Assembly: GCA_000004985.1 (NCBI GenBank)
Contig: GG738850.1
Length of the DNA stretch: 64,000 bases
Reading direction: 5' to 3' (one strand)
Origin: Naegleria gruberi
Taxonomy: Eukaryota
Positions within the stretch are counted from its first letter, which is position 1; each line of letters begins with the position of its first letter. Made by a program: the position numbers and the translations under genes. The notes under the pieces were generated by a model. It was not told the origin of the DNA. It ran no database searches and worked only from the letters and a program-made list of their open reading frames with translations. Positions 21,740 through 63,445 of the stretch are shown one piece after another.

Positions 21740-22145
21740 AGGTGTTTCCGAAAATATTCCTTCAATAAAAAAAAAAATTGTTGTGATGAAATACTTTTCT
21801 GTTCCTTTGCTCTCCTTTCCGTCTGCTAATAGTGAACCAATATGTGCTAATCTTTTATATCGTAAATAATATTATTGTCTAGTTGTTTTTCAAATTTTGA
21901 TCAATAGATACTAGCTTTCACAGAGAAAATTTAGAGTTTTACATTTAAAAATTAAATTAGATTTTTCACTATTTGATCCTCCTTGATCCCACGATCGGAA
22001 GAGTTTCTAAATTCAAAATAATGTAGACTGTGTGTTGGTTACTTTTCGTCATGCTTTGTCATGCTTTAATTGTGATTTTACCTTCAGTTCCACAAGAACG
22101 AAAATTGGCAAACAAAGAACAACAACAACAAACAATCACAAAAAA

Positions 22146-24044
22146 ATGCAAAGAAAATTTTGTTTTGTTTGTGGAGTCTTGACAGGTGTTTTTGCAGCAA
22201 AATTCTACACAGTTAAGAATGGATTTGTTGGTAAAATACCTATTCATCATGCATGCCACGATGGTATAATTTGTGGAAAACATTATAACATATTCAGGAG
22301 ACAATTTAATAATTTAGATGAGAACTTTACAAATATTGAATTTGGAACAAATGAAACAGTACAACATAATCACTCTAACAAAACTCAATCATATCAATTT
22401 CACATTCATAATGAAAGTAACATTTTACCCTTAGACCCACAGTCATTTAAAAGTTTAGAAAATCAAAATATCGGCCTTACCATTATTCCAACTGACCACT
22501 TGATTCGTATTGTGAAACCAGTACAGTGTAAAATCTGTGAGAGCACAAATATACATTTAAGAGAAATTACTAAAAATGGATTTGAACAGATATTCCGTTT
22601 TACTTGTTTGGCTTGTAATACGGTATTTGTTTTTAGAACATGTCCAAGGAATCTTAAATTGAATAGACATATTATTCAATCATTTGAACTCTCGAACTCT
22701 ACCTATGAATCATTTAAAACATTTACAACCCTTGTCGGATTGCCAATAATTAATAAGAAATCATATTATCAAGCAACAAACAAGTTATGGAGCAGTAGTA
22801 GTCAAGTATTAAATCAAGAAATGGACAAGGAATTGGAAAAGATTGCAAATCAGAAAATGAAACAAGTGCTTGGTCCTTTAATTTCTGCATTTGAACTGGG
22901 AAGAGAAGTTCCGGCATTGATTTACTCCTTCATTCATGATGCAATATTTTTGGATATATCAGTTGATGCAAGATATTCATCTAGGAGAAATGTTTACGAA
23001 TGTACTCTTGTGGTATTCGAAACAAAGGCAAAAAAAACAATTGAACGATCACACGTTATCAAGAAAAGAGCATCTAATAGAAAAAGTGCCTTACAATGGT
23101 TTATGGGAGCCTCTAAATTAATGGAGCCAGAAGCATGTCGTTTAGCAATTACATCTTTGAAACACAAGTCATTTCCAGTAATGGGTTATGGTATTTTACA
23201 TTTCAAAATTGGCTCTTTTGTTCATGACAAAGACTCAACTGTGGCAGCAGTCATCAAGAAATTAGAACCAACAGCATTAGAAAAGTTAGATCCAAATCAT
23301 GTAATCAAAAATCTGAGCAAGGAAGTAGAAGAAAAAGCACCCCGTATTGCCAGTATTATTGTATCATCCTTTAGGAAAGCTCTAAAATTAGCCAACACCA
23401 CCACTAATTCAAATGAGAAACTCCAAGCATTATTGAAAGCTTATCCACAACATTTACAAAATAACCATTCTCTGTGCGATTCAGGTTGTCCACACACAAT
23501 TAAACCAGAAAAATTGATCACTAAAGAGGAAGCACAAGTTGTTAAAGAAATATTTGACAAACGAATCAAATATAGTCACAAATTTTGTGATATTGCATGC
23601 AATAGCCAAAACAATGAGTCCATACATAGTACTATTTGTCATACAACACCAAAGACATTAGATTTCAGTCGAAATTATTGTGGAAGAGCTGATCTGGCAA
23701 TAGGTGAACGATTGCTTGGAAAATTTGCACAATTAAGAAAAATTCAAAGATTTATTGGTAGTCTCTTCGTGATTCCAAAAGAGCAGGCCATCAAGTTAGA
23801 TACTCAATATCATCAGGATAAAATAAGGAAACAGTCTAAAGCTTATAAGGAAAGAAGAGTGGAGCTTCGGAAAACAAAACTTAAGGTAAAAGAATCTCCA
23901 CAGCCAAAGGGAACAATTGGAAGTTGCACATGTTCGAAGGGTTCGACATGTACAAAAGCTTGTCCATGCAGAAAAGCCGGGAAATCATGTACTTCCAAAT
24001 GCTCTTGTTCCCTTACCAAATGTTCAAACAACAAAAAAGTTTGA
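22146..24044 (+). CDS. putative transposase-like protein: N-terminal zinc-ribbon motifs plus C-terminal tesmin-like CXC cysteine-rich tail
   Basis: Track ORF is 22032..24044; first ATG is at 22146 (MQRKFCFVCG...). Motifs CFVCG...HHACHDGIICGKH and CKICES-x19-CLACN (CxxC...CxxC ribbon). Central segment FIHDAIFLDISVDARYSSRRNVYECTLVVFETKAKKTIERSHV loosely resembles the first-D region of ISXO2/IS1595-Merlin DDE transposases. C-terminal CTCSKGSTCTKACPCRKAGKSCTSKCSCSLTKC. No cellular family recognised. Flanked by the inverted repeats above. Confidence 0.5.
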   Translation: MQRKFCFVCGVLTGVFAAKFYTVKNGFVGKIPIHHACHDGIICGKHYNIFRRQFNNLDENFTNIEFGTNETVQHNHSNKTQSYQFHIHNESNILPLDPQSFKSLENQNIGLTIIPTDHLIRIVKPVQCKICESTNIHLREITKNGFEQIFRFTCLACNTVFVFRTCPRNLKLNRHIIQSFELSNSTYESFKTFTTLVGLPIINKKSYYQATNKLWSSSSQVLNQEMDKELEKIANQKMKQVLGPLISAFELGREVPALIYSFIHDAIFLDISVDARYSSRRNVYECTLVVFETKAKKTIERSHVIKKRASNRKSALQWFMGASKLMEPEACRLAITSLKHKSFPVMGYGILHFKIGSFVHDKDSTVAAVIKKLEPTALEKLDPNHVIKNLSKEVEEKAPRIASIIVSSFRKALKLANTTTNSNEKLQALLKAYPQHLQNNHSLCDSGCPHTIKPEKLITKEEAQVVKEIFDKRIKYSHKFCDIACNSQNNESIHSTICHTTPKTLDFSRNYCGRADLAIGERLLGKFAQLRKIQRFIGSLFVIPKEQAIKLDTQYHQDKIRKQSKAYKERRVELRKTKLKVKESPQPKGTIGSCTCSKGSTCTKACPCRKAGKSCTSKCSCSLTKCSNNKKV

Positions 24045-32714: not shown

Positions 32715-33600
32715 ATGCAAAACAAAAACCTGCTTGGAGTTTCCGATCAGCAACAAATCGGTCGATCACGAAAATCCTCTGCCGTCGATCAAATCATCAA
32801 CCGACAAGGAAACAAGGAAAGTTTATCATCACTTTTAAATTCAAGCACTCCGAGTAGGTTTACAGTTGCTGTTTCGTCGTCTCCGAATTTTTCAACGAGT
32901 CCCTTGACGACGAATCCATTTCTATCTTCGTCTGGAGAACAATTTAATGGTGCTGTTGGGGATGAGTATAATATGGATGGAAATGTTGGAGAGAATGGAC
33001 CTAGTTTGGCAACGAGTCCTTCGGTTTCGAATAATGGATTTTTAAATTCGTTTAGTGGAGGAAATAGTGGATATAATAGTGGTATGGCAAATCTTTTTGG
33101 GAAGTCGGCAAATTTGGGATTTGATTCCGAGGAGAATGTTTTTATTTCAATTATTAAAAAATCATCACAACAGAATGCCATTGAAAGTATTTGTAGATTA
33201 TTGGAAACTCCACAAGATTTGGAGAAATTGGACGATTTGAAAAATTCTACTGAAAAACAAGTGGAAAAACTTCAAACCCAATTAACCAATTTGGCGGGAA
33301 CTCAAGTTGAAGAAGCAGATCAGGCCATTAATTTGATGGGAAAAATCAGAGATGATTTAAATGTAAAATTAAATGAAAATACCGAAAATTCCCTATTTAA
33401 CATGATGAAAGTATTGGGAGAAAATAATAGACAACTCATCGATGATTATCATATTGTGAGTGAAGTATTGTTGGCACACAACAATATTAAAAAGACAATT
33501 GAGAAATTGGAAACATTGACAGTTTTGAGAAGGAAATTGAGAAAGATTAAAGCAAAATTGAGTTACCATGATGATCAATATGTACTCAGTGCTCACTCTG
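32715..33600 (+). CDS. SEC6: exocyst complex component Sec6 (EXOC3), exon 1
   Basis: ATG at 32715. Low-complexity N-terminus, then a coiled-coil region LETPQDLEKLDDLKNSTEKQVEKLQTQL. Ends in phase 1 at a GTAAGT donor (33601). Confidence 0.8.
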
Positions 33601-33682
33601 GTAAGTTATAATTGTATTTTTGAATGGACATTCTAAATATTTCTATATTGTTGGTAATTCTCCAAAAAATTATTGTAAATAG

Positions 33683-34705
33683 ATATCATTCTATTGGAGG
33701 AAATTAAGGATGACGCTCTCAGAGAAGTTAAAGCCAAAGTCACACGTTCTGATTATATTGACATTTTCGAGGATTATTTCCACATGATTGATGATATAAG
33801 AACTCGTTTTGAAGATTTATTGTGGATGCGTATTGCTGACTTGGAATATACAGCTGAGAACGAACCCGAAACTGTGGTAAGAATTGCAAGAATGATCGAT
33901 AAGGAAGAAGAAAGAGATCAACGTAAATTAGTGGAATACGATGAAAGACTCGAAGCTCTCAGAAAGAAGAAAAAGAATAAGAGATCAGATGAAGACGATA
34001 TCCATGAAAGTTCTGTACTTGAACCTAAATTGAGAAGAATGAAAGAGGAATTCTTCAAGAGACTTCGTCAATCAGTGAGTGACAAGTTCAATGAAGCAGT
34101 TTATGCCACCGAAGGGAGAAAGAGTGTCGATGAAAAGATTAATGATTTGACAACCTTATTGGGTGAAAAATTGAATATTGGTGTTACTAGATATGTGTCG
34201 ACATGCTTCCCTTCCTCTTGGAAGATTGTTCCATTCCTTGCCAGTGCCTATGAGGAAGAGTTGGTAAAATACATTGAAGGATTGGTAAATCCAAAGAGTG
34301 CCAGTTACAATACTCTTGGTATTGGTGACAAACTCAAAGTTATCAATTGGCTCGATGATTATAAGAATTTAGTGGATGAAGTCACTACCAATCCAAGATC
34401 ATTTGAAAATGAAAAGAAACAACTCATTGGAGATTATATCAGTACTAGATCCAGTTTTATGATTGAATATACCAATAGTACAGTTTCTTTGGACTTTAGA
34501 GATTTTGAGAATATTCCGCTCAATGCCAACATTAGAGGTTATCCATATACTGCTGCCTGTGTTGAAGTATTTACATTTATCAATCAGCAATTGGATGAAT
34601 TGATGGAAACTGAAATTCCAGAAGTGATTCCACCATCTATGGGTGGTTTGAAAGCCTCACTCAGATTCTTTATTGACACCTCCTTTGAAAAAGTTGAGGA
34701 AAATA
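33683..34705 (+). CDS. SEC6: Sec6 exon 2
   Basis: Acceptor AATAG at 33678-33682. Contains TVVRIARMIDKEEERDQRK, matching human EXOC3 LLVSVVRIIEREEKIDRR. Ends in phase 1 at a GTAAGT donor (34706). The next intron is only 44 nt. Confidence 0.75.
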
Positions 34706-34749
34706 GTAAGTTTTTTTCAAAATTATACATGAATATTTATCAAACATAG

Positions 34750-35386
34750 TTGAGGATATTCCACTTGTTGTCATTTGTGCTCTCATTAACAATAACACTA
34801 CCAGTATTGACTACTTGAAAGCAGTGGTTGAGAGAATTGAACACTTACTTGTGGAAGACAATCTCTTCGACTTGGAAGATCAATTCAAAAAGAATGGATA
34901 CAAAATGGTCGACTTGTTATGTGAACGTGTCATTATGGCCGATGTTAAGGATTTACTGAATGAATTATTTACAGAAAATTGGATGGTTGTTCCTTTGGAA
35001 GAAAAACTCGAAAAGGAGGATTTGATTGTTGTTCTGAGAGATGCACCAGTTTACAAGATGGTTGAAATGATCTTTGAACCATATTATAAGGAATTGGAGG
35101 AGGATTTACTTGAGGCAGAATACAGAGATCACCTCACTGAAAAACTTGCCGAAATATTTGTTGGAAAATATATGGAGAAACTCTTATTCAATAAGGTACA
35201 TTTTGATGACCCAATTGATGCCTCCAATCAAATGAAGGAAGATATTAGAATTATTAAGAGATTCTTCACTGCAGAATATAATGCCAAGGAAGACGATGTT
35301 GAATATTCGGCACAGAGAATGGATGTGGATATGTTTAGTATGAATTACTACGAACCTATGAAGAGTATCTTTTTAATTTTGAAAGC
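34750..35386 (+). CDS. SEC6: Sec6 exon 3
   Basis: Acceptor ACATAG at 34744-34749. Frame continuous with track ORF 34815..35396. Ends in phase 2 at a GTATGT donor (35387). Confidence 0.7.
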
Positions 35387-35493
35387 GTATGTTTAATTTT
35401 GAATTTTATTCGAATCATTTATATTCGTATCATAATTATTTCGTATCTTGGCCATTGAATGCTTTAAATATTATTTCAAACCCTTTTTGATAG

Positions 35494-36040: not shown

Positions 36041-36861
36041 ACTATTTGGAAATTTGTATTTTGTGAATATTCAATCATTTCGAATTTGTAAAGTGAGCAT
36101 GCTCAACTATATTGAGCCAGCTCCTTCTCAAATTGTTGACATTCTGCATTCTTCGTAATATCAGTTTCTTAAAATCCTTTCGACAGTTCACACTCATAGT
36201 GTTGAGTTAACAAAGGAGCGAAATTTATCCTACTCACTCCAATTTATACCAAACCAAGGAAAAGTATAAAGATTTTTTTGCATTATCTTTTAAACTCTAC
36301 CCAATCAACTACATTCCCACAACATTACAACCACATATCTCAATAGTTACACCATTTTCAATTAAAGTGTTCCATTTCCAAACATTTCCATTCCGCACTT
36401 TCATGTTTGCCATTATTGACCATTCATGCCGCTGCGCAAAAAATTCAAAACCTAACAATTTAGGCGGGAAACCAAAAAACCCTTTGGAAATGAGAGTTTT
36501 TTATGCTACAAGCAATGAAACAGCTCTGATGCTGTTGAAGCAACAAACACAATGCTCTCACAGTTGCTCGAACCTGAAAAAAAAACGAACAAGTCCCTCC
36601 ACCACCTACAACCTTTATCGCAGCACGGCAGCCTCACTTGTAGTAGCCGGCCGGATAGAGAGTTTGATTTTCTTGTATTTGTGTGGACAAAGTCTTGCTA
36701 CTTTAAAAATCGACAATAGTAACGGAAAGGAGAATAATCAAGTAGATAGGATTAGTAGTTGTTACGGAATAACCGATCATCTTGTCATCTTTTGTATAAA
36801 AACTATACATTGCTGATTTGAAGCATTTTACATTGATTCTTTCTCCCTTTCGAATAGATTA

Positions 36862-37764
36862 ATGACACCAGAAGAGAAGCAGAAAGCATTGCTCATGATA
36901 CTGAGCAGATATACCAAGAAAGATGACAATTCACAACAATCACAGGACCCATCTGCATCATCATCGAATGGCCCATCCATTGTAGACCAATTAGTACATC
37001 AACAACAACCACTTTTTAACACAAATGTCATTAATCCTCCTCCTCAACAATATGTAAATAATTCAGTATCTACTAACACTATTCTTATGAACGGTGGTCA
37101 ACCAGTAATGGCCACTACGAACCTAATTGAACTAGTCAATTCTGGCATTATCCCATCTAGTAATAATAATTCCAATTGTAGTGTAGCTGACCAAGTTGAA
37201 ATTATTGCACCCTTGATGATAAATTTGAATTTAAATAATACTTTTTTGGGATCACAACAATTCACAATGTCATCCACCCCAGTTGACCAATACAGTCCTG
37301 CTAGCAGCTCACTATCCACACCAACTAGCTCTTCATCCCAATCTTCTGCCAGTCATTTATCTGACAATAGTATTCCACAAATGACCCAAACCACAAACAA
37401 GAAGAAGAAGAAGAATAACAAGAATAAGATTGGTAAGCAAAACAAGATGAATCGTGACATGATATCCACTGGCTACAATTCTAGCTCTGTACATCAAGTA
37501 GGCAGTTCATCATCTATTGCATCATCATCAGCCACCAATTCACCTGTTTCATCCAGTTCCACGACTGGCACGAGTGTGCAATTTATTAACTTGAGCAATG
37601 AAGAAATGAAGATTAAATACGATTCAGAATCATCACTAAATTCTCAAGTGAAACCAAAGAGAAAAAGAGGAAGACCAAAAAAACCAGAACCAAAGAAACC
37701 AACCAAAATAACGTATCAATTCGTTCAAGAAGATGGCACGGGTGATCCCAAAAGCAAAAAGTAA
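36862..37764 (+). CDS. AT-hook (KRKRGRPKKP) low-complexity nuclear protein (300 aa)
   Basis: True ATG at 36862. S/N/Q-rich body. C-terminal PKRKRGRPKKPEPKKP AT-hook. Confidence 0.5.
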   Translation: MTPEEKQKALLMILSRYTKKDDNSQQSQDPSASSSNGPSIVDQLVHQQQPLFNTNVINPPPQQYVNNSVSTNTILMNGGQPVMATTNLIELVNSGIIPSSNNNSNCSVADQVEIIAPLMINLNLNNTFLGSQQFTMSSTPVDQYSPASSSLSTPTSSSSQSSASHLSDNSIPQMTQTTNKKKKKNNKNKIGKQNKMNRDMISTGYNSSSVHQVGSSSSIASSSATNSPVSSSSTTGTSVQFINLSNEEMKIKYDSESSLNSQVKPKRKRGRPKKPEPKKPTKITYQFVQEDGTGDPKSKK

Positions 37765-38495: not shown

Positions 38496-38602
38496 GTAAG
38501 TTTTAAATTACTGTACAATAATTTAATCTAAATGATTGTTTCAATGTAAATTAAATTATTGGAATAATTTTTCAATATTATTATTCGAAATATTTCATCT
38601 AG

Positions 38603-45643: not shown

Positions 45644-46135
45644 ATGTCTGAAACCAAGCAAGTCGAATTAACATCCAAGGATAAAGTTTCCTTCAAGGTT
45701 GATAGAGATGTCATCTTGATGTCCGGTCTCGTTAAGGATATGTTAGAAGAAGGTGATGAAGATGAAACACCAATCATCCCAATTCCAAACGTTGATTCCA
45801 AGCCATTGCAAAAGGTTATTGAATATTGTCAATATCACCACAAGGAACCAGCCCAAGAAATTGAAAAGCCATTGAAGGGTAAGATTGAAGATGTTATCTG
45901 TGATTGGGACAAGAAGTTCTTGGAAATTGATCAATCTCTCTTGATTGAACTTATCATGGCTGCCAACTATTTGAATATTAAGGATCTTTTGGATTTGACC
46001 TGTGCTAAGGTTGCCTCCATGATCAAGGGCAAGTCACCAGAACAAATTAGAGAAATGTTCGGTATTGAAAATGATTTCACCCCAGAAGAGGAAGCCAAAA
46101 TTAGAGAAGAAAACAAGTGGTGCGAAGAAGCATAA
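45644..46135 (+). CDS. SKP1: Skp1 (SCF ubiquitin ligase adaptor), 163 aa, single exon
   Basis: True ATG. Full-length Skp1 hallmarks: IEYCQYHH, the dimerisation C-terminus DLLDLTCAKVASMIKGKSPEQIREMFGIENDFTPEEEAKIREENKWCEE. Confidence 0.95.
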   Translation: MSETKQVELTSKDKVSFKVDRDVILMSGLVKDMLEEGDEDETPIIPIPNVDSKPLQKVIEYCQYHHKEPAQEIEKPLKGKIEDVICDWDKKFLEIDQSLLIELIMAANYLNIKDLLDLTCAKVASMIKGKSPEQIREMFGIENDFTPEEEAKIREENKWCEEA

Positions 46136-48772: not shown

Positions 48773-50701
48773 TCAATTTTCAGTAATTACTTCACGATAG
48801 GATTGAGCCACTTCTAATGTATTATCTTTTGGAACAAATTTGATTCTTGGATGGTGGGGAATTATGTATTTCGAAAATAATTCACTATTATTCGAATCAT
48901 ACTCAAAATACTCTAAACTTGGTGGCAAATCTAACTTTGGATAAATATCTTGAACAAAATCAGAACTATCACTAAAATTAAAATGCCACACTAGCTTTTT
49001 GAGCTGTCTGAATTTCTTGATTGATTTTACAATATCCATATCATTTTGTGCATATGTATTCGTTCTTATAATTAATTCTTTGAGATTGGGTGATCTTTTT
49101 GCTAGATTTCTAATCACCCTCCCACTAATAGCACCATGACTCGTATTTATAGATTCTACATCAGTCAGTAATGCCTTCTCAACATCTCTATTTTCAATAT
49201 AGAAATGTTCAGAGCCATAGGTTAGAGGTTGCATCATGTAATAAACTGTTCTTTTTCCAGGTTTTTTCAAATAATAATTGAAAAAGGAAGAGTTCAAAGT
49301 GTGGCCAAGTATTTGCATACCATTAACTCTTTCATGGCTTGGCATGAATAATTTTTCTTTCAATGATGATGTGTGATTGTGTTTCTCTAACTGTCTGTCA
49401 GCATTATTAATTAAATTTCTAAATGAAATTTCAAGAATGTCATCATTGACCACACTTTTCATGGCAATTTCTCTCCAATATTTACAAGTTCTTGAAATGA
49501 GCATTCTATTATAGACAGGTAGGAATGAAAATATTAATTCTGTAGAGTTATCATCCAATAGGCGGTAACTAAATGCTGAAATTATTTTAGTATTAGGATT
49601 GAGAGCTTTGGCTTTTTGAATATATACATCACGTTCCTTTTTCATGTCTTTTCTTCCATAGACATAGGCAATCATTTTAGCACATTCATCACTATTAATA
49701 ATACTCATTGATTGTAAAAAATCATCCAATGCCAAATCAACTTCATGTGAATAATAGTATGAAAGTCCTCTATTATAAATATAATGGCCCAAATTTGGAT
49801 GATCCTTTCCAATTTCAATAGCCTTATTGTAACATTCAATAGAATCTCTGTAATAGGTTGAAAAATAATATGAAATTCCAGCTCTGAAATATAGCTCTTC
49901 AAGAGATATTATTGAGGAAGGAATTTTAACCTTCTCTGTCTGTTCTTCCTGGGGAGCAGTGACTTCCTGTACTTGTTTCCCCAACTTGCTCTTTATCAAG
50001 TTTCCAGCATGTTTGAAATAGGATTTGGTTTGTTCATGAAATTCATTCAAATTCTCCATCACCTTCTCAGCAGTATGTTTCATAACATTTTGAATTTCAA
50101 AAACCTTCTTCTCCACCTCATTGGATTTGCTATCGTTGGCTTCTTTCAACTCTATTGCCTTTTTGAATGCATGAGCAGATTCCAAATAATCTCCAGTCAC
50201 ATAGAGAAGAAACCCTTCCAAATATTTGACAATATAGGTCTCTTTCAGCGTGTAATCCAAATAGATAGCAAATTTGAGATCGTTCATTGCCTTTTCATAC
50301 TTATTAGAGGCACATCTCACCAAAGTTCTTTGCAAGTATAAAATTGCATCTTCAGATGATAATACAACTTTTGGATCTGATGAGTTTTCCATTGGTGCTG
50401 AATTTTCTATTGCTGAATTTTCATTCTTTTCATCGGCTGTAATTAATTTCGCATCGTCACCATCAACAATTTTCATCTTGTTATTCAACATCTTCTCGGC
50501 CTTATCTTGCTTTCTATATAAAATCTTCTCCTTCAATTCTCTTCTTTTAATCTTCCAGTTGGAATCAATCTTTTGATTGTTTTCTCTAATTTTACTATCC
50601 ATCGAGGAGAAGGTACTATGAATGAAATTGTATGCAGAGCCACCCAAGATGAGCGGGAAAAGAAGGATCAGAACAGGACCAGAAGGTACACTTCCACACA
50701 T
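48773..50701 (-). CDS. TPR-repeat protein with an F-box-like segment and C-terminal LRR-like region; N-terminal hydrophobic anchor (642 aa)
   Basis: True ATG at 50701. TPR-like repeats (AMNDLKFAIYLDYTLKETYIVKYLEGFLLYVTGDYLESAHAFKKAIEL; YNKAIEIGKDHPNLGHYIYNRGLSYYY). F-box-like ELIFSFLPVYNRMLISRTCKYWREIA. Confidence 0.6.
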   Translation of the reverse strand: MCGSVPSGPVLILLFPLILGGSAYNFIHSTFSSMDSKIRENNQKIDSNWKIKRRELKEKILYRKQDKAEKMLNNKMKIVDGDDAKLITADEKNENSAIENSAPMENSSDPKVVLSSEDAILYLQRTLVRCASNKYEKAMNDLKFAIYLDYTLKETYIVKYLEGFLLYVTGDYLESAHAFKKAIELKEANDSKSNEVEKKVFEIQNVMKHTAEKVMENLNEFHEQTKSYFKHAGNLIKSKLGKQVQEVTAPQEEQTEKVKIPSSIISLEELYFRAGISYYFSTYYRDSIECYNKAIEIGKDHPNLGHYIYNRGLSYYYSHEVDLALDDFLQSMSIINSDECAKMIAYVYGRKDMKKERDVYIQKAKALNPNTKIISAFSYRLLDDNSTELIFSFLPVYNRMLISRTCKYWREIAMKSVVNDDILEISFRNLINNADRQLEKHNHTSSLKEKLFMPSHERVNGMQILGHTLNSSFFNYYLKKPGKRTVYYMMQPLTYGSEHFYIENRDVEKALLTDVESINTSHGAISGRVIRNLAKRSPNLKELIIRTNTYAQNDMDIVKSIKKFRQLKKLVWHFNFSDSSDFVQDIYPKLDLPPSLEYFEYDSNNSELFSKYIIPHHPRIKFVPKDNTLEVAQSYREVITEN

Positions 50702-57241: not shown

Positions 57242-57827
57242 ATTTTTTAAAATGTTGTCAAAGTCTTTTTTTAGCTCATCACGAATTATTTTTATTATTT
57301 TTAATTATTTCATTTTGTAAAGTTTAGATGAGATCGGAATTCATAACAATTGATAACATGAATAGCATTCAGATACAACAATTCTAAAAGATTTGAAAGA
57401 TCTCTCAGAATTTATTGTAAAACCTTAATGAAAATCCTCAAATTTTACCATTCATCCTCAATTTGGAACTACCTCAATCTAGAATTTCATCCCACAATAA
57501 GGAACAACCAACAAACCTTTGATTTACCGTCCATTTCAAGAACTTCCATTGTAAAGACACTTCCAAAAATCTTCAATTTTAAACTATTAATACATTGTAC
57601 AGCGATCATCATTTCATGCACGACTTTGATTTATCATCTTAAAAAAATAGAGTTTCATCTCCGACAAGAGATTTACATCGAGGAAGATCTGCATCTGAGG
57701 AGGGATTGTGTTTCTAGGATTTCCCTTTATTCTTGTTATTTTCATTGTTATTGTTGTTTTTTAAATTATTTAAAATATATATAGATCGGTTATTGTACAT
57801 AATATACATAAATATAGAGTGAGAAAC

Positions 57828-58988
57828 ATGTTGAATCGTTTCAGAATAAGAAGGTTTTTTAATAATATTAATTATTATTATTTGGGAATTATTTGTTGTT
57901 TGATGATGGCAATGATCGGAGGAGTGATGGCACAGAGTGGAGGAGAGTTTATTCATCCACATGGGCATCATCATGATCATTACAAGGTTCTAAATCATAG
58001 TGTGGCTCTACTTTTTGAGGGAAGAGAAAAGGAATCCTTCTTTTCCATTCCAGAGGAAAGAACCAAGCTGATTGCCATGATTAAACCAGAACTTGAAATT
58101 CATACTGATGTTTATGATATTTATATTAGGACAACTTTGTATTCATATATTGCTTTCACAATATCTTATTTGGTGTTGAGAATGATTATTGTTCCGAGCT
58201 TGTTAAAGTTGCTTGGAAAGAGTTATGTTGAATATTTTCAAAAGAGTGTTACACCATACGAAAAGGCACATCACAGTCAAGTTGCCCTAAGCTTTGCTCA
58301 TGCCATTATTGCAACTGTTGGATCATATTATTGTACTATTCATATTTATGGAATGGATTTGTTGAATTTTGCATTGCAAAATGCATACAATCAACCATTC
58401 GATTTGGAGATTTTCAAAACTAGACATTGGTTCTTGGCAATTACATTGGGATACTTTATTGCTGATTTGACATTTTACTTTTTCAATCACTTTCATCCAT
58501 TCTCTCCGAACGATCAAAATTCCCTTTCACATGTTCTTGGTGTCATGATTAAGCAAGCATTCAGTTTGGATTTGCTTCATCACTATATCAGTTGCTTGGC
58601 TTACGTTTACTTCTTCTCGATCAATGTTGGAAGCTTTTTGATCATTTCATTCGAGATTAATGAAATTAGTACACCATTCTTACATGTGAGATATTATGCT
58701 AGACAGTGGGAACAAACCAGCAAATGGTGGTATCACTTGAATCAAGCTTGCTTTGTAGTCACATTCTTTGTTTCAAGAATTCTTTACAATGGCGTATTGA
58801 TGTATTTTGTGTTTTGGTCACAATTCCACAGATCTGTTCTCTTCCCAGTATTACAAGTTGACAGCACTGCACTCATTTCATCCTTTGTTTTCCCAATTCT
58901 TTATTATGGAGTTCAATGTTTGTGGTGGATTGCCATCTCTAAAATTATTATTGGAAAGATTACTGGAGCCAAGCAAAAGGAAGAATAA
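57828..58988 (+). CDS. multi-pass membrane protein, TLC (TRAM/LAG1/CLN8)-like topology (387 aa)
   Basis: Track ORF starts with GTG at 57819; first ATG at 57828. N-terminal signal-like helix, His-rich stretch (HPHGHHHDHY), then about 6 hydrophobic helices with conserved-looking W/H residues (HHYISCLAYVYFF). Family tentative. Confidence 0.5.
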   Translation: MLNRFRIRRFFNNINYYYLGIICCLMMAMIGGVMAQSGGEFIHPHGHHHDHYKVLNHSVALLFEGREKESFFSIPEERTKLIAMIKPELEIHTDVYDIYIRTTLYSYIAFTISYLVLRMIIVPSLLKLLGKSYVEYFQKSVTPYEKAHHSQVALSFAHAIIATVGSYYCTIHIYGMDLLNFALQNAYNQPFDLEIFKTRHWFLAITLGYFIADLTFYFFNHFHPFSPNDQNSLSHVLGVMIKQAFSLDLLHHYISCLAYVYFFSINVGSFLIISFEINEISTPFLHVRYYARQWEQTSKWWYHLNQACFVVTFFVSRILYNGVLMYFVFWSQFHRSVLFPVLQVDSTALISSFVFPILYYGVQCLWWIAISKIIIGKITGAKQKEE

Positions 58989-59442
58989 TTTATTTTGTAA
59001 ATTAAAATTGTACATAAAATCACTTTTAATGAACTCTAGTGATTAGTGATAGACAGTCAACCAAAATATGATAACTAGAAATATATTACAACCTTTATTC
59101 TATAGGATAGAATTGAATCCTGTTTATTGAGGCAAATTAATTACTGGATTCTTTTCAATTAAAAATTGTCTTCAATGAATTCTATAACAATGGAGATCAC
59201 GACAATATCTTTATTCCGTATTCAAAAGACACGTATTCCATTCGGAAGGATTAAAGATATCCAATTTCAGATTCTGTTAATTGGATGTTCTCGGTAGGAC
59301 TCATTTTGAAATCCAACTTCTGCTTTCCCAATTACTCCTCTGACTAAATTGGAAATTTATTGCAAACTATCTCTAATGCTTAAAGCCGTTTCAGAAATGT
59401 ATGAGTAAACATACAATTCTGACTTGAAACTATTCGAAAGGA

Positions 59443-59736
59443 TCACCTCATAACGATTTCAATCAATTCTCGAATGCTTTCTGTAAGAAAGCTGTCGATT
59501 TTCATCATGTATTGAAGGTGTATATCAAGCAATCGAAAGTCCTCATGGCCTCTCTCTAAACAACATTCACATTCCCAACCATTAATACACCATGATGTTG
59601 TATCTGATTGTAGACTAATCTCAATATCTTCTAATTCAAAGAAGTGAAACGAACTAAACACAAGTCCTAACACGCAAAAGACGATTTGCATTATGACCTG
59701 TATGATGTTTTTTTTGTGGAATGAAATCAACATTGC
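59443..59736 (-). CDS. possible small Cys-rich membrane protein (~97 aa), weakly supported
   Basis: ATG-initiated ORF MLISFHKKNIIQVIMQIVFCVLGLVFSSFHFF...WCINGWECECCLERGHEDF... nested in track ORF 59443..59856 (alternative start). No homology recognised. Confidence 0.2.
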   Translation of the reverse strand, partial: AMLISFHKKNIIQVIMQIVFCVLGLVFSSFHFFELEDIEISLQSDTTSWCINGWECECCLERGHEDFRLLDIHLQYMMKIDSFLTESIRELIEIVMR

Positions 59737-60104
59737 ACCACATTGGACTGTTCCAGGTTGGTTTCGAAGAAGGCCACGCAGCAACTTCCTTTCTGAGAAA
59801 GATTCCCTTGATCTCAACATGGGATAGAGTGGACAAACAATTAAGTACATGCTCAAAATCCCTTATAACTCCGTTACTTAATATCCACACACCAATATCG
59901 TCATCACCAACAAACTTGTTTTGTGACTCTTATTTCTCTTCCTATTCTCCATTCTCCATTCTCCATTGTCTTAGACATACAAAAACACACCAAGTAAGAT
60001 CAATGAAATTCTTCCTTCGAACATGAAGTGTGAACATTTTATATTACTGTAGTTGTAAATTATTTACAGTTGGGATCAAATTGATACAATCTTTTTACAA
60101 AAAA

Positions 60105-60911
60105 ATGCCTCGATTGATTGGTTGGATGAAACAATCACCTAGTAGGAATAACCAACAAGAAGCTGCGGATGATATTTCACAAGTTGTTTCAAAGTCGATA
60201 TCGGAAAGTTTAATTTCCACATCGGAAACAGTAGTGGAAAGTACTACCATCAAGAAATCTAATTCTACATGTATTATTGTCAAGACATCTTCTGATCTTT
60301 TTCTTGATGAAATTTCAATTCATATTGCTGAATATTTGGATTTGAAAAATTTAAATTCTTTTGCTCGAGTTGACTCGAATTTATTGAAATTATTATTTAA
60401 TAGACAAGTTAATGAAACAAAACCTATCAATTATGTATTGGACGAAAATTCAGATTTTGAAAGGATTCAATAATTAATTTGGAAACCTCTTGTTTTTCGT
60501 CATTTTCCCAATTTTGGAAAACAGTTAAATGTAAAAAATTGGATTCATGTTTTACAACGTAGATTAAGGCACATTAAAATCCACAAAAACAAATCATCTC
60601 ACTCATTCCAAATTCCCACTCCATCCTTTGCCAAAACAGTTGAAGATCAGAAATTTATTGAAAATTGTGAATGGATTTACAAATGCCCGCTGTCATTCAA
60701 ATCTCTAAAAGCTGATCCACAAGAATTAAATCTTTCTCATTGTAATGTTTGTAATAGAGAGGTGCATTTGGTTCATAACATGATTGAAATGAAATCCAAC
60801 TTAATGAAAGGAAATTGTGTTGCTTACTCAACTAAACCAATGATACCAGTAATGTTGGGATATATTGCACCACCTATTCCTCCACCATTACCACCACCTC
60901 CACCTGGTTGA
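60105..60911 (+). pseudogene. F-box protein paralog A, interrupted by an in-frame TAA (60471-60473); frame stays open and homologous to paralog B through 60911
   Basis: ATG at 60105 (MPRLIGWMKQ...). F-box-like LFLDEISIHIAEYLDLKNLNSFARVDSNLLKLLFNR. ...DFERIQ*LIWKPLVFRHFPNFGKQLNVKNWIHVLQRR...CEWIYKCPL...GNCVAYS...PPPLPPPPPG is collinear with paralog B (...DFERIQTLIWKPLVFHYFPKFGEKLNVKNYLHVLRRR...). The TAA aligns to the Thr codon ACT in B. Confidence 0.45.
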
Positions 60912-61131
60912 AAATTCCATCATGTAATTTTTCATGTTCTGTAAAGTTCTTCCTTTTTTATTATAGTAATTCTTGTTGATAAGTGACAGGTTGAGTAACA
61001 TTTACTATCCATCAAGATTTTGAAAGAAAATCGAACATACTACTGAATCAGATAAAAAAAGTGTTGGTATTAGAGAGCCACTTTCTAATATCTTTCTTGA
61101 GGAGATTGCTGTTTATGGGCAGTTTTTAGAG

Positions 61132-61746
61132 TTGAAGGATTTGAATAGTTTCGCTCAGGCAGATTCGAATACATTTAACCTATTTTTTAATAGAAATTTG
61201 AAGGATAAACAATCAAAGAATGTTGAATATGAAACAGATGAAATAATGGATTTTGAAAGAATTCAAACTTTGATTTGGAAACCTTTAGTTTTTCATTATT
61301 TCCCCAAATTTGGTGAAAAGCTGAATGTTAAAAATTATTTACACGTTTTGAGGAGAAGAATTCAATACATAAACCTTGGGAAACCACAACACATTAAAAT
61401 TGAAACTCCACAATTCACCAAAACAGTAGAAGATCAGCAATACATTGAAAATTGTGAATGGATTTACAAATGTCCACTGGAATATGACACTTTGAACACA
61501 ATGTTCTCTCACAATGATAGGAAGTTTTGCGAAGTATGTCAGAAGGATGTTTATCTAGTCGATGATATGTCAAATTTCAAGACACAAATCACTCAAGGAA
61601 ATTGTGTTGCTTACTCACCAAATCCAATCAAGAATATTCCAAGGCTTGTTGGTTCCATGGCTCCTCCAAGACCATTTATTATTCCTAATAATATCAACAC
61701 GACTCTTGTACCACCACCCCAAATCAATAGAATTTCCAAGAAATAA
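61132..61746 (+). CDS. F-box protein paralog B (C-terminal Cys-rich CEWIYKCPL...FCEVCQ...GNCVAYS and Pro-rich tail); 5' end unresolved
   Basis: Track ORF starts with TTG. The frame is open from 61024 and already encodes the F-box (PLSNIFLEEIAVYGQFLELKDLNSFAQADSN) with no in-frame ATG, so an upstream exon or start is missing from my model. Confidence 0.6.
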   Translation: MKDLNSFAQADSNTFNLFFNRNLKDKQSKNVEYETDEIMDFERIQTLIWKPLVFHYFPKFGEKLNVKNYLHVLRRRIQYINLGKPQHIKIETPQFTKTVEDQQYIENCEWIYKCPLEYDTLNTMFSHNDRKFCEVCQKDVYLVDDMSNFKTQITQGNCVAYSPNPIKNIPRLVGSMAPPRPFIIPNNINTTLVPPPQINRISKK

Positions 61747-61978: not shown

Positions 61979-62905
61979 TCATTTCTTATCAACTCGAGAC
62001 ATTTGAATTTGAATGGATGGAGAAACCCAAATACCACAAGAACATTGAGATCCACTCCACTTGTAAGCTCCAACTCTGTGTCCACATTTACAGAAAATTC
62101 TTCCTTCATCGCCATCCATTGAACCCATCCAATCTATCTTTTCTCCCAAATAGAGAGAAGTACAATTCTTTGAAGTCTTTGAAACTCCTCTCTTGGCATC
62201 CTTTCTCAATTTCTTATATTCAAAATCTTTGAGTCCTCTCTTCTCCGAAGGAGAATGTTCAATCAATTCACCTGTTGAGAATAATTTCAATCTACAAATT
62301 TGACAATAGTATTCGGCATTGGCTTCCTTCTTTTCGTTAATGTAAAATCTCAATTGTTCAACAAAGATTGGAGAAAGCCAATCATGAAGACTTTCCTCAA
62401 GATTTTCAGGTCTCAATCTTTCATGAATAAATTCAATACTCTTTTCAATTGTTAGCTTCTTCTCCTCGGTTAAGTAAAAAGCCAAAGCAACTACACAAGG
62501 GCTATAATCAGTCTCATAGTCAGTTCTTATTAAAATTCCAAATGGTTTATCATCGGTTTTACACTTGAAGGCTTGAACAAGAAAATTTAAACAGCCTTCC
62601 ATAAAATCAGGCACAGATTCTGTTGTTTCCAAAGAGCCAACAATACTTCCATACGAGAGAAGACAATGAATAATATCATGTTGTTTTTTAGTATTATTAC
62701 TATTTGGTGTTTGTTCATTTACTATTGGTTTATCATGAACCAAAGAAAGGACATGAGTGATGGAGTGTTCCTTTAAATTCTTAGCTAATGTACTATCAAT
62801 TTCTGACAAGCCAACAACAGCCACGGAATGATGGTTTGCCATGTAAATACTGCTGGTGATTTTGACACCAATCATGGAAGCAGGAGTTTCAGACATTTTT
62901 TTCAT
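61979..62905 (-). CDS. Yvh1/DUSP12-like dual-specificity phosphatase with C-terminal zinc-binding domain; catalytic HCxxGxxR motif degenerate
   Basis: First ATG at 62905 (MKKMSETPAS...); track start is a GTG. DSP-fold N-terminus, but the active-site region reads DYSPCVVALAFYL with no His or Arg. C-terminal Cys/His cluster YYCQICRLKLFS...FCKCGHRVGAYKWSGSQCSCGIW, typical of the Yvh1 zinc-binding domain. Confidence 0.7.
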   Translation of the reverse strand: MKKMSETPASMIGVKITSSIYMANHHSVAVVGLSEIDSTLAKNLKEHSITHVLSLVHDKPIVNEQTPNSNNTKKQHDIIHCLLSYGSIVGSLETTESVPDFMEGCLNFLVQAFKCKTDDKPFGILIRTDYETDYSPCVVALAFYLTEEKKLTIEKSIEFIHERLRPENLEESLHDWLSPIFVEQLRFYINEKKEANAEYYCQICRLKLFSTGELIEHSPSEKRGLKDFEYKKLRKDAKRGVSKTSKNCTSLYLGEKIDWMGSMDGDEGRIFCKCGHRVGAYKWSGSQCSCGIWVSPSIQIQMSRVDKK

Positions 62906-63445
62906 AAGTTCAAACAAAATTTTAACCACAACAATCTAGGAAGCTAAGGATCTAGATACTTGGTAATATATTATCTTGTAATATTTGTCATCAGCAATGG
63001 ACCTGTTATATCCTAGCAAAACAATTTAAATACAAAATTTTCTTATTTCCATCGATAGATTTGAGAAAATACGCGATATTCTATCGCCAGAGAAAAAAAG
63101 CTTTTTTTTGAGATGTGTCGCGCATGTGGTCGCTTGCGCAAAATTACTTGTGTGCTGCATAAACTCCAGTTAATGTTTTGAAAAAATATTTGCCAATCAA
63201 ACTCATCAAATCCCGCAAACATCAATTCTCTCTCTTCATCGCGCAGTTGATAATTGTTGGTTATTAAACTTGGACAACAACTTGTTTATATTGAGAGGAG
63301 TCAAACAATTTGATTAAATTGATAATTATCAACACTACCTCAATAACATTTAGGGAATCATCATCAAAATATTGGTTTTTATTGTAGATAGAAATAATTT
63401 GATAATATTACTACTCTTTCTAGTATTATTTCATAGCAAAACATC

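What the first reader, a model, noticed from the sequence alone, without database searches (positions are those of the whole stretch)
60105..61746. Tandem F-box gene pair; upstream copy carries an in-frame TAA where the downstream paralog has Thr
Paralog A (60105..60911) and paralog B (61024..61746) share the F-box, DFERIQ, LIWKPLVF, VKN..HVL.RR, CEWIYKCPL, GNCVAYS and a Pro-rich C-terminus. In A the codon after ERIQ is TAA; in B it is ACT. The frame of A remains open and conserved for 146 codons beyond the stop, implying recent inactivation or read-through. Paralog B has no in-frame ATG for its F-box, so it needs an upstream exon I could not place.
Basis: seen in the sequence. Interest (0 to 1): 0.52.

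Follow-up and report, generated by a model that had tools for sequence, protein, structure and literature searches.

The report
Freshly broken F-box gene pair
Two neighbouring copies of a Naegleria-specific F-box gene each carry one recent defect (a premature TAA in one, a missing start codon in the other), which is the ordinary turnover expected in a fast-evolving gene family and not a new coding mechanism.

Summary
The window is Naegleria gruberi nuclear DNA, which uses the standard genetic code. A (60105-60911) and B (61024-61746) are tandem paralogs, 48% identical over 216 aa. They belong to a family found mainly in Naegleria: a divergent F-box, a helical linker and a five-Cys C-terminal module. 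A has an in-frame TAA at 60471-60473. The closest intact relative has CAA there in a near-identical codon context, so one C>T transition explains the stop. The 145 codons after the stop are open and show no decay by conserved columns, profile score, relative rate or dN/dS. The lesion is therefore very young, or a null allele of a heterozygous diploid, or less likely a base-call error. TAA is the commonest true terminator in this window, and the site has no leaky context, downstream RNA structure, suppressor tRNA or usable intron, so read-through has no positive support. B lacks an ATG for its F-box, and the public model (166 aa) starts at internal Met75. Relatives are single-exon genes and the A-B spacer has no GTAWGT splice donor, so a missing upstream exon is unsupported and loss of the start codon is more likely. 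This is an ordinary finding of low interest.

The parts
60105..60470 (+). Paralog A, translatable part (Met1-Gln122). It holds the family's N-terminal MP...DDIS motif and the divergent F-box (about 60291-60419), and ends at ...DFERIQ.
   Evidence: Translation. Alignment A1. It retains 10 of 11 family-conserved columns. It scores 46.9 bits against a family profile built without A and B, versus 26-56 bits for intact members.
60471..60473 (+). In-frame TAA (codon 123 of A), most simply derived from CAA (Gln) by one C>T transition.
   Evidence: Sequence. Codon contexts: A is AGG ATT CAA TAA TTA ATT TGG, P0001 is AGA GTT CAA CAA TTG ATT TGG, and B has ACT. The column reads Q in 7 of 16 homologs and T in 4, and all 16 have a sense codon.
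60474..60911 (+). Paralog A, post-stop segment: 145 open codons plus TGA. It encodes the helical linker (LIWKPLVF...LNVKNW.HVL.RR), the five-Cys module (about 60657-60830) and a Pro-rich tail. It is not translatable without read-through.
   Evidence: It retains 37 of 42 conserved columns and all invariant residues. It scores 152.7 bits, versus 120-213 for intact members. A-unique versus B-unique changes are 15 versus 16. dN/dS is about 0.20-0.25. The first in-frame ATG after the stop is at 60780, which leaves only 43 codons.
60912..61023 (+). 112-nt A-B spacer. In B's frame it holds ATG-TAA (60922), a 10-codon uORF (ATG 60934) and stops at 60964, 60967 and 61021. It has no GTAWGT splice donor.
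   Evidence: Spacers in the N. lovaniensis tandem array are 150-225 nt.
61024..61245 (+). Paralog B, open frame of 74 codons without an ATG. It encodes an F-box-like region (about 61084-61209) with a one-codon deletion in helix 1 (IAVY-GQFL).
   Evidence: Translation and alignment. It scores 44.4 bits, within the range of intact members. Evolution is accelerated: 18 B-unique versus 5 A-unique changes, chi2 7.35, and dN/dS is 0.62-0.71 versus 0.34 for A against P0001.
61246..61746 (+). Paralog B, the annotated CDS (166 aa plus TAA) starting at Met75. It contains the linker and the five-Cys module (about 61444-61617) but no F-box.
   Evidence: It is identical to P0002, 'predicted protein [Naegleria gruberi]', on a 707,703-bp scaffold. 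It scores 167 bits against the family profile. Six upstream ATGs lie between A's stop and Met75.

Best explanation
A and B are old tandem duplicates of a family found mainly in Naegleria. The family appears to encode SCF substrate adaptors built from a divergent F-box, a helical linker and a five-Cys, probably zinc-binding, C-terminal module.

Each copy carries one young disabling lesion:
- In A, a CAA (Gln) codon became TAA by a single C>T transition. Ribosomes should stop after residue 122, giving at most an F-box-only stub. The downstream 145 codons are a still-pristine relic. The lesion may be fixed, or it may be one allele of a heterozygous diploid that the consensus assembly happened to capture.
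- B has lost the initiator codon that relatives have about 20-30 codons upstream of the F-box. Only the 166-aa F-box-less product from Met75 can be made, if anything is made.

This is birth-and-death turnover in a lineage-specific F-box family.

Shown here: paralogy, the lesions, the sense codons at the site in all homologs, the absence of decay, standard use of TAA as a terminator, and the absence of splice signals.

Inferred: Skp1 binding, the substrate-adaptor role, zinc binding, and that the TAA is a real base and not an error.
For: Organism and code:
- B's annotated CDS and the neighbouring TLC gene are identical to N. gruberi proteins on one 707,703-bp scaffold.
- The code is standard. 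A 4,511-aa dynein ORF is uninterrupted, and TAA ends 16 of 28 long ORFs, often followed by T as at this site.

Origin of the stop:
- The closest intact relative has CAA at the stop column in a near-identical codon context, and all 16 homologs have sense codons there.

No decay in A's post-stop segment:
- It retains 37 of 42 conserved columns.
- It scores 153 bits, versus 120-213 for intact members.
- Unique changes number 15 in A versus 16 in B.
- dN/dS is about 0.2.
- 5.4% of point mutations in the segment would create a further stop. The open frame would be half-lost after about 12 substitutions (about 3% divergence), whereas dS between A and B is saturated at 2.4.

No rescue route:
- There is no GTAWGT donor in A or the spacer.
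- The conserved codons abut the TAA on both sides.
- The downstream RNA is not structured, z = +0.59.
- The window holds no suppressor tRNA.

B's start:
- Relatives are single-exon genes.
- B's N-terminal part shows elevated dN/dS of 0.62-0.71 and 18 versus 5 unique changes.

F-box identity:
- Weak Pfam hits occur in 4 of 17 members.
- Distant relatives combine a Pfam F-box-like domain with the same module.

Allele possibility:
- Naegleria is described as mainly a heterozygous diploid (PMC9928731).
Against: - No reads, second assembly or ortholog of A could be obtained, so the base itself is unverified.
- Two independent young lesions in adjacent genes, each leaving an otherwise perfect frame, is somewhat unlikely. 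It could point to a shared cause that I cannot see, such as assembly problems, relaxed selection in the long-cultured NEG-M strain, or an unrecognised expression mechanism.
- B's ATG-less part still scores like an intact F-box region, so it may still be translated in some way.
- An in-frame ATG at 60934 with a weak GTAAAG donor and a CAG acceptor (111 nt) would give B a full F-box.
Confidence: 0.62

Rival explanations
1. The TAA is a base-call or consensus error. The true codon is CAA and A is an intact 268-aa gene.
For: Everything except this one base looks like a functional gene. The required change is a single base. No independent sequence could be found to confirm it.
Against: The site is not in a homopolymer or a low-complexity run. 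From general knowledge and not tested here, the substitution-error rate of a finished Sanger consensus is of the order of 1e-5 to 1e-4 per base. That makes an error which also creates a stop in one given gene far rarer than a real nonsense allele in a fast-evolving gene family. The public annotation left A unmodelled: no database protein matches either half. That is consistent with the stop being present in the deposited assembly.
Confidence: 0.12
2. Gene fission by complementary degeneration. After duplication, A is kept as an F-box-only protein (residues 1-122) and B as a protein carrying only the linker and Cys module (166 aa). Both would be functional, possibly acting together or against each other.
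For: The break points coincide. A's product ends at DFERIQ and B's product begins at M-DFERIQ, within 7 residues. B's unused N-terminal part evolves faster than A's. The Cys module exists on its own in many organisms, and at least one Naegleria model (P0013) lacks the F-box.
Against: A stop placed at random in A would fall within 10 codons either side of B's first Met in about 7% of cases, so coincidence is plausible. The Met at that position is ancestral, since P0001 has V-M-E-F-E-R, and is not a newly evolved start. A's discarded half shows no decay at all. Six upstream ATGs precede Met75 on any transcript that starts in the spacer. There is no expression evidence.
Confidence: 0.08
3. B is an intact gene whose first coding exon lies upstream. 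One possible form is ATG at 60934, a 7-nt exon and a 111-nt intron (60941-61051), giving MFYKKSVGIREPLSNIFLEEI...
For: B's F-box-encoding frame is open for 73 codons (P = 4.5e-4 by chance) and scores like intact members. A GT..AG combination that preserves the frame exists within the spacer.
Against: All relatives with readable DNA are single-exon genes. Five of five credible local introns have GTAWGT donors, and none exists in the spacer. The best candidate is GTAAAG, which lacks the +5 G. B's N-terminal part shows relaxed constraint. The public model starts at Met75.
Confidence: 0.1
4. Translational read-through of the UAA keeps A functional. From general knowledge of near-cognate decoding, UAA is usually read as Gln, Tyr or Lys, so read-through could restore the ancestral Gln.
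For: The downstream frame is open and conserved. The codon before the stop is CAA, and A-rich positions just upstream of a stop favour read-through in yeast (general knowledge).
Against: UAA is the commonest terminator here, and UAA followed by U is an ordinary terminator context in this window. The downstream RNA is not structured (z = +0.59) and there is no Rfam match. No homolog has a stop at this column. No other conserved gene in the window has an internal stop. The pristine downstream frame is explained equally well by a young lesion.
Confidence: 0.04
5. TAA is a sense codon in this organism, as in the nuclear codes of some ciliates.
For: Both A and the neighbouring gene at 61979-62929 end in TGA.
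Against: Sixteen of 28 long ORFs, including PCIF1, phospholipase D, dynein and B itself, end in TAA. The standard code gives ORFs of up to 4,547 codons. The only tRNAs in the window are two tRNA-His and one tRNA-Asn.
Confidence: 0.01

Closest known systems
Unprocessed (duplicated) pseudogene, or segregating nonsense allele, in a lineage-specifically expanded F-box gene family. Birth-and-death evolution of this kind is described for F-box families of plants and nematodes (general knowledge).
   Same: It is a tandem duplicate with a single premature stop at a position that is a sense codon in every relative. The rest of the gene is intact, and the family is expanded and variable between species.
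   Different: There is no measurable decay yet, so 'pseudogene' may be premature: it could be a heterozygous null allele. The partner copy has a different, complementary lesion, a lost start codon.
F-box proteins with an alpha-helical linker after the F-box (Cdc4, Fbw7, beta-TrCP, FBXO31), the substrate receptors of SCF ubiquitin ligases.
   Different: A and B score below any Pfam threshold, and the A/B/P0001 subclade lacks the canonical Pro of the LPxE motif. The substrate-side domain is not WD40, LRR or Kelch. It is a roughly 60-aa five-Cys module with no Pfam, NCBIfam or PDB match.
Programmed stop-codon read-through genes (viral gag-pol and TMV-type sites, and Drosophila or mammalian read-through extensions).
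   Same: An in-frame stop is followed by a long, conserved open frame.
   Different: Known cases usually involve UGA or UAG in a leaky context (a following C, or CARYYA) or a downstream structure, and the stop itself is conserved among orthologs. Here the stop is UAA followed by U, the downstream RNA is unstructured, and no homolog has the stop. It also interrupts the core of the protein and does not add a C-terminal extension.

Membership tests
F-box domain (Pfam PF00646 / PF12937) | The sequence matches the F-box profile at or above Pfam's gathering score. | tested here: not met
   A and B give no Pfam hit even at E <= 5. Four of 17 family members give F-box or F-box-like hits, with best E-values of 3.4e-4 and 5.7e-4, near or below threshold.
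F-box domain (Pfam PF00646 / PF12937) | A three-helix fold superimposable on F-boxes solved in complex with Skp1. | tested here: met
F-box domain (Pfam PF00646 / PF12937) | The protein binds Skp1 and assembles into an SCF ligase. | not testable with these tools
Pseudogene / null allele caused by a nonsense mutation | A premature in-frame stop lies at a position that is a sense codon in homologs, and truncates essential domains. | tested here: met
   The TAA at codon 123 of 268 removes the linker and the Cys module. All 16 homologs have sense codons at that column, and P0001 has CAA.
Pseudogene / null allele caused by a nonsense mutation | Relaxed constraint after the lesion: extra stops, frameshifts, loss of conserved residues, or dN/dS approaching 1. 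| tested here: not met
   There are no further disruptions. The segment retains 37 of 42 conserved columns, scores 153 bits, has dN/dS of about 0.2, and shows equal branch changes compared with B. This limits the age of the lesion and does not contradict it.
Pseudogene / null allele caused by a nonsense mutation | The stop is a real base in the genome (read support), and no full-length protein is made. | not testable with these tools
Two metagenome scans found nothing.
Programmed stop-codon read-through | A leaky stop context or a stimulatory RNA structure downstream. | tested here: not met
   UAA followed by U is the same context as many true gene ends here. The 120 nt after the stop fold no better than shuffles (z = +0.59). 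There is no Rfam hit.
Programmed stop-codon read-through | The stop codon is conserved among orthologs, together with a conserved downstream frame. | tested here: inconclusive
   No ortholog of A was found. The nearest relatives are 48% identical, and there is no positional ortholog in N. lovaniensis or N. fowleri. None of the 16 paralogs and homologs has a stop at that column.
Stop-codon reassignment (variant nuclear code) | TAA occurs in frame in many conserved genes, is not used as a terminator, and a cognate suppressor tRNA exists. | tested here: not met
   TAA ends 16 of 28 long ORFs, a dynein of 4,511 codons has no internal stop, and the window holds no suppressor tRNA.
Spliceosomal intron that bypasses the TAA or supplies B's start | GT..AG boundaries with the local donor consensus (GTAWGT), and an exon junction that preserves the conserved residues. 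| tested here: not met
   The only GTAWGT between 59900 and 61800 is at 61534, inside B's conserved coding sequence. The conserved codons abut the TAA on both sides. Relatives are intronless. Only weak-signal candidates exist for B.

The most novel reading that the evidence does not exclude
The two lesions may not be independent accidents. They could be the two halves of a gene fission caught in progress: A would now supply a free F-box (Skp1-binding) stub, and B a free linker-plus-Cys-module protein, split at the same DFERIQ boundary. Alternatively, A's UAA might be read through as Gln often enough to keep the full-length adaptor under selection.
Probability: 0.1. Interest if true: 0.45.

Novelty: new member of a known kind. 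Interest (0 to 1): 0.15.

Why it matters
On the best-supported reading it matters very little biologically. It is one more young nonsense allele or pseudogene in a rapidly turning-over, lineage-specific F-box family.

It does have some practical value for annotation of N. gruberi:
- A is an unannotated gene relic.
- B's public model is an N-terminally truncated fragment.
- The family, a divergent F-box with an uncharacterised five-Cys module, has no domain model.

If the minority readings were true, the locus would be a tidy natural example of gene fission by complementary degeneration, or of UAA read-through in a heterolobosean. The present evidence gives no positive support for either.

Tried and rejected
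- **Variant genetic code.** Rejected. The standard code gives ORFs of up to 4,547 codons, and TAA is the main terminator.
- **Other interrupted genes in the window.** I scanned for them. The 36211-37764 case is just upstream sequence that is open in the same frame as a low-complexity gene.
- **A third, degenerate family copy.** None was found by tblastn or by a profile HMM over all six frames.
- **Orthologs of A and B.** The first database search gave nothing closer than 48-52% identity. Two metagenome scans, one with protein patterns and one with a degenerate DNA pattern for DFERIQxLIWKPLVF, gave nothing.
- **N. gruberi DNA outside the window.** N. gruberi genes are not in the contig index. 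Look-ups for P0002, P0005 and P0010 all failed, so I could not see why other N. gruberi paralog models are truncated.
- **Positional ortholog through the neighbouring TLC gene.** TLC orthologs were found in N. lovaniensis and N. fowleri, but neither has a family member nearby, and synteny breaks immediately after TLC.
- **dN/dS between A and B.** Synonymous sites are saturated (dS 1.0-2.4). The ratios only show long-term purifying selection and do not report on the period since the stop arose.
- **A's His in 'VHLV' as a sign of decay.** The other 15 aligned family members that cover this column have Tyr or Phe there, but a distant stand-alone module (P0117) also has His, so this idea was dropped.
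- **Structure searches.** Foldseek against the PDB and a profile search of PDB sequences found nothing significant. The afdb50 library was unavailable.
- **Literature.** No paper was found on this family or on read-through in Naegleria. The N. gruberi genome paper is not in the held library.
Full report
**What the window is.** The window has 34.5% G+C and is densely packed with long ORFs under the standard code. These include an uninterrupted 4,511-aa dynein heavy chain. B's downstream part is identical to a 166-aa 'predicted protein [Naegleria gruberi]' (P0002). The neighbouring TLC-domain gene is 100% identical to another N. gruberi protein on the same 707,703-bp scaffold. The window is therefore N. 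gruberi nuclear DNA. TAA ends 16 of the 28 longest ORFs, TGA 9 and TAG 3, and TAA followed by T is common at real gene ends. The only tRNAs present are two tRNA-His and one tRNA-Asn. There is no sign of a variant code.

**Checking the observation.**
- A starts at the ATG at 60105. It has TAA at 60471-60473 between ...DFERIQ and LIWKPLVF..., then runs open for 145 codons to the TGA at 60909-60911.
- B's frame opens at 61024, just after an in-frame TGA, and ends with TAA at 61744-61746. Its first ATG is codon 75 (61246).
- The two translations are 48% identical over 216 aa (E = 2e-71).
- Zero of 20,000 shuffles kept A's post-stop segment open. B's ATG-less 73 codons stayed open in 4.5e-4 of shuffles.

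**What the genes encode.** Pfam finds nothing in A or B.

Distribution of the family:
- The first database search found only Naegleria proteins (N. gruberi and N. lovaniensis) plus four unnamed proteins from ENA and JGI metagenome assemblies.
- An exhaustive profile search found 47 cluster representatives of the full-length architecture at E <= 1e-30.

Layout of a family member:
- a short N-terminus, often MP.F...DD[IL]S;
- an F-box-like stretch;
- a conserved helical linker (F..VQ..IWKPLV.YFP.F...LNVKNWMHVLRRR);
- a compact five-Cys module (IENCEWIYKCPL...FC.VC...VY.V...G.CVA).

Evidence that the N-terminal part is an F-box:
- Four of 17 members give weak Pfam F-box or F-box-like hits (best E = 3.4e-4).
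- More distant relatives, including a Balamuthia SPRY protein, combine a Pfam-detectable F-box-like domain with the same module.

The F-box label is therefore reasonable, although A and B fail the sequence-profile criterion. The C-terminal module has no Pfam, NCBIfam or PDB match. Its cysteine pattern and its beta-hairpin CxxC suggest zinc binding, which is an inference. The likely role of an intact member is substrate receptor of an SCF ubiquitin ligase, also an inference. A Skp1 gene lies about 14 kb away at 45644-46135.

**The TAA in A.**
- *Origin.* At the stop column the 16 homologs read Q (7), T (4), V (2), L, F and E. The closest intact relative, P0001, has AGA GTT CAA CAA TTG ATT TGG where A has AGG ATT CAA TAA TTA ATT TGG. 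A single C>T transition from CAA is the obvious origin.
- *Conserved residues.* Downstream of the stop, A keeps every invariant residue and 37 of 42 columns that are at least 80% conserved. Intact members keep 75-100%.
- *Profile score.* Against a family profile built without A and B, the segment scores 152.7 bits, versus 120-213 for the same half of ten intact members.
- *Relative rate.* With P0001 as outgroup the segment has 15 unique changes against 16 in B, and five other outgroups give similar results.
- *dN/dS.* The ratio is 0.20-0.25 against B and P0001. Synonymous sites are saturated, so this reflects the long history of the gene and not the time since the stop arose.
- *Age limit.* 5.4% of possible point mutations in the segment would create another stop. 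The frame would be half-lost after roughly 12 neutral substitutions (about 3%) and 95% lost after about 54 (about 12%), and sooner once indels are counted. The lesion therefore dates from a small final fraction of A's history.

**Ways round the stop.**
- *Splicing.* The conserved codons abut the TAA on both sides, so no intron can remove it without deleting conserved residues. The only GTAWGT between 59900 and 61800 is inside B's coding sequence.
- *Re-initiation.* The first in-frame ATG after the stop leaves only 43 codons.
- *Read-through.* The context is UAA followed by U, the 120 nt downstream fold no better than shuffles (z = +0.59), and there is no Rfam match.
- *Precedent.* No other conserved gene in the window has an internal stop.

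Read-through therefore has no positive support. Basal near-cognate decoding of UAA, which often inserts Gln (general knowledge), would produce traces of the ancestral protein.

**Is the base real?** I could not test this. N. gruberi contigs are not in the contig index, and two metagenome scans were empty. The site is not in a repetitive context. No database protein corresponds to either half of A, which is consistent with annotators having met the stop in the deposited sequence. Naegleria is described as mainly a heterozygous diploid, with long-cultured strains accumulating SNPs (PMC9928731). A null allele captured in the consensus, or a mutation specific to the culture line, is therefore as plausible as a fixed pseudogene. 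I rate an outright base-call error at about 0.12.

**B's missing start.**
- *Gene structure of relatives.* Every relative whose DNA I could read is a single-exon gene with its own ATG about 20-60 codons before the F-box. These are the three tandem N. lovaniensis genes in L002, P0003 in L003 and P0001 in L001.
- *Spacing.* The distance from A's stop to the start of B's frame is 112 nt, in line with the 150-225-nt spacers of the N. lovaniensis array.
- *Splice signals.* Five credible local introns all have GTAWGT donors and YAG acceptors: Sec6 33601-33682 and 34706-34749, 38496-38602, and on the minus strand 54371-54281 and 44067-43847. The spacer has no such donor.
- *Best in-spacer candidate.* It consists of the ATG at 60934, a 7-nt exon, a GTAAAG donor and a CAG acceptor at 61051 (111 nt). 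It lacks the +5 G.
- *Constraint on B's N-terminal part.* It has a one-codon deletion in F-box helix 1. It has 18 unique changes against 5 in A (chi2 7.35). Its dN/dS is 0.62-0.71, against 0.34 for A versus P0001. It still scores 44 bits, within the intact range of 26-56.

The simplest reading is that B lost its initiator codon fairly recently and can at most express the annotated 166-aa F-box-less product. Six upstream ATGs would precede Met75 on a transcript that starts in the spacer. An unrecognised 5' exon remains possible, at about 0.1.

**A coincidence worth stating.** A's translatable part ends at DFERIQ, and B's annotated product begins at M-DFERIQ. This is the pattern expected from gene fission by duplication and complementary degeneration. 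Three points argue for coincidence. A randomly placed stop would fall this close in about 7% of cases. The Met is ancestral, since P0001 has it too. A's discarded half shows no decay. I keep fission as a minority rival (0.08).

**Genomic context.** No further family copy exists in the window. The TLC gene upstream of A has orthologs in N. lovaniensis and N. fowleri, where it sits next to Sec6. Neither locus contains a family member or relic, and the downstream genes are unrelated. The A-B pair therefore has no positional ortholog in those species.

**Verdict.** The locus is best described as two old tandem paralogs of a mainly Naegleria F-box/Cys-module family, each with one young disabling lesion. 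That is ordinary gene-family turnover, or a null allele in a heterozygous genome. Interest is low. The one experiment that matters is read or PCR support for the T at 60471.

Noticed in passing
window 60657-60830 and 61444-61617; proteins P0108, P0081, P0087, P0117, P0148, P0071: The family's C-terminal module of about 60 aa with five Cys (IENC.F.FKCP..W..L..FC..C..V[YFH]..G.CVA) is far more widespread than the full-length family. The profile search gave 1,868 hits at E <= 1e-3. These include 72-94-aa stand-alone proteins, some on 3-4 Mb contigs of bacterial size, and a Balamuthia protein with SPRY, F-box and the module. No Pfam, NCBIfam or PDB match exists.
   Followed up: partly
window 45644-46135 (+) and 48773-50701 (-): A canonical Skp1 gene (Skp1_POZ plus Skp1 dimerisation domains) and a TPR+F-box gene lie 10-14 kb upstream of the A/B pair. 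This may be coincidental clustering of SCF components.
   Followed up: no
proteins P0002, P0005, P0006, P0010, P0013 (N. gruberi paralogs elsewhere in the genome): Five of the seven annotated N. gruberi family members among the first 16 hits are truncated models: they start inside or after the F-box, lack it, or end early at 'FCTR'. All five N. lovaniensis models are complete, and the four whose loci I read are single exons. This could mean more hidden stops or lost starts in N. gruberi, or mis-modelling. Their DNA could not be fetched.
   Followed up: partly
window 32715-35396 and 57819-58988; L004 6388-11215; L005 4624-11137: Sec6 and the TLC-domain gene are adjacent in N. lovaniensis and N. 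fowleri but about 22 kb apart in this N. gruberi window. Synteny ends immediately downstream of TLC.
   Followed up: partly
window 33601-33682, 34706-34749, 38496-38602 (+); 54371-54281, 44067-43847 (-): All five credible short introns (44-221 nt) have a GTAAGT or GTATGT donor and a TAG or CAG acceptor. This is a useful local splice consensus.
   Followed up: partly
window 22032-24044 (+): A 670-aa ORF has a Mutator-like transposase domain (PF20700, E = 3e-17), so it is a possible MULE element or a domesticated copy.
   Followed up: no
window 58989-60104: A 1.1-kb stretch without any recognisable gene lies between TLC and A. It contains an (ATTCTCC)x3.4 microsatellite at 59944-59967 and ORFs of 100-137 aa on both strands; the one I scanned against Pfam (59446-59856, minus strand) has no hit. 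One 106-codon open stretch (59706-60023) is in A's frame, separated from it by a TGA.
   Followed up: partly
window 61979-62929 (-): A 316-aa ORF downstream of B has no significant Pfam domain but has a Cys-rich C-terminus (CQICRLK...CKCGHRVGAYKWSGSQCSCG). It is not homologous to the 316-aa gene at the comparable position in N. lovaniensis.
   Followed up: partly
protein P0044 (N. fowleri FDP41_004214, 745 aa): This N. fowleri model joins most of this family's profile (positions 8-204, up to the start of the Cys module) to eEF1A-like domains 2 and 3. It is probably a fused gene model, or possibly a real fusion.
   Followed up: no
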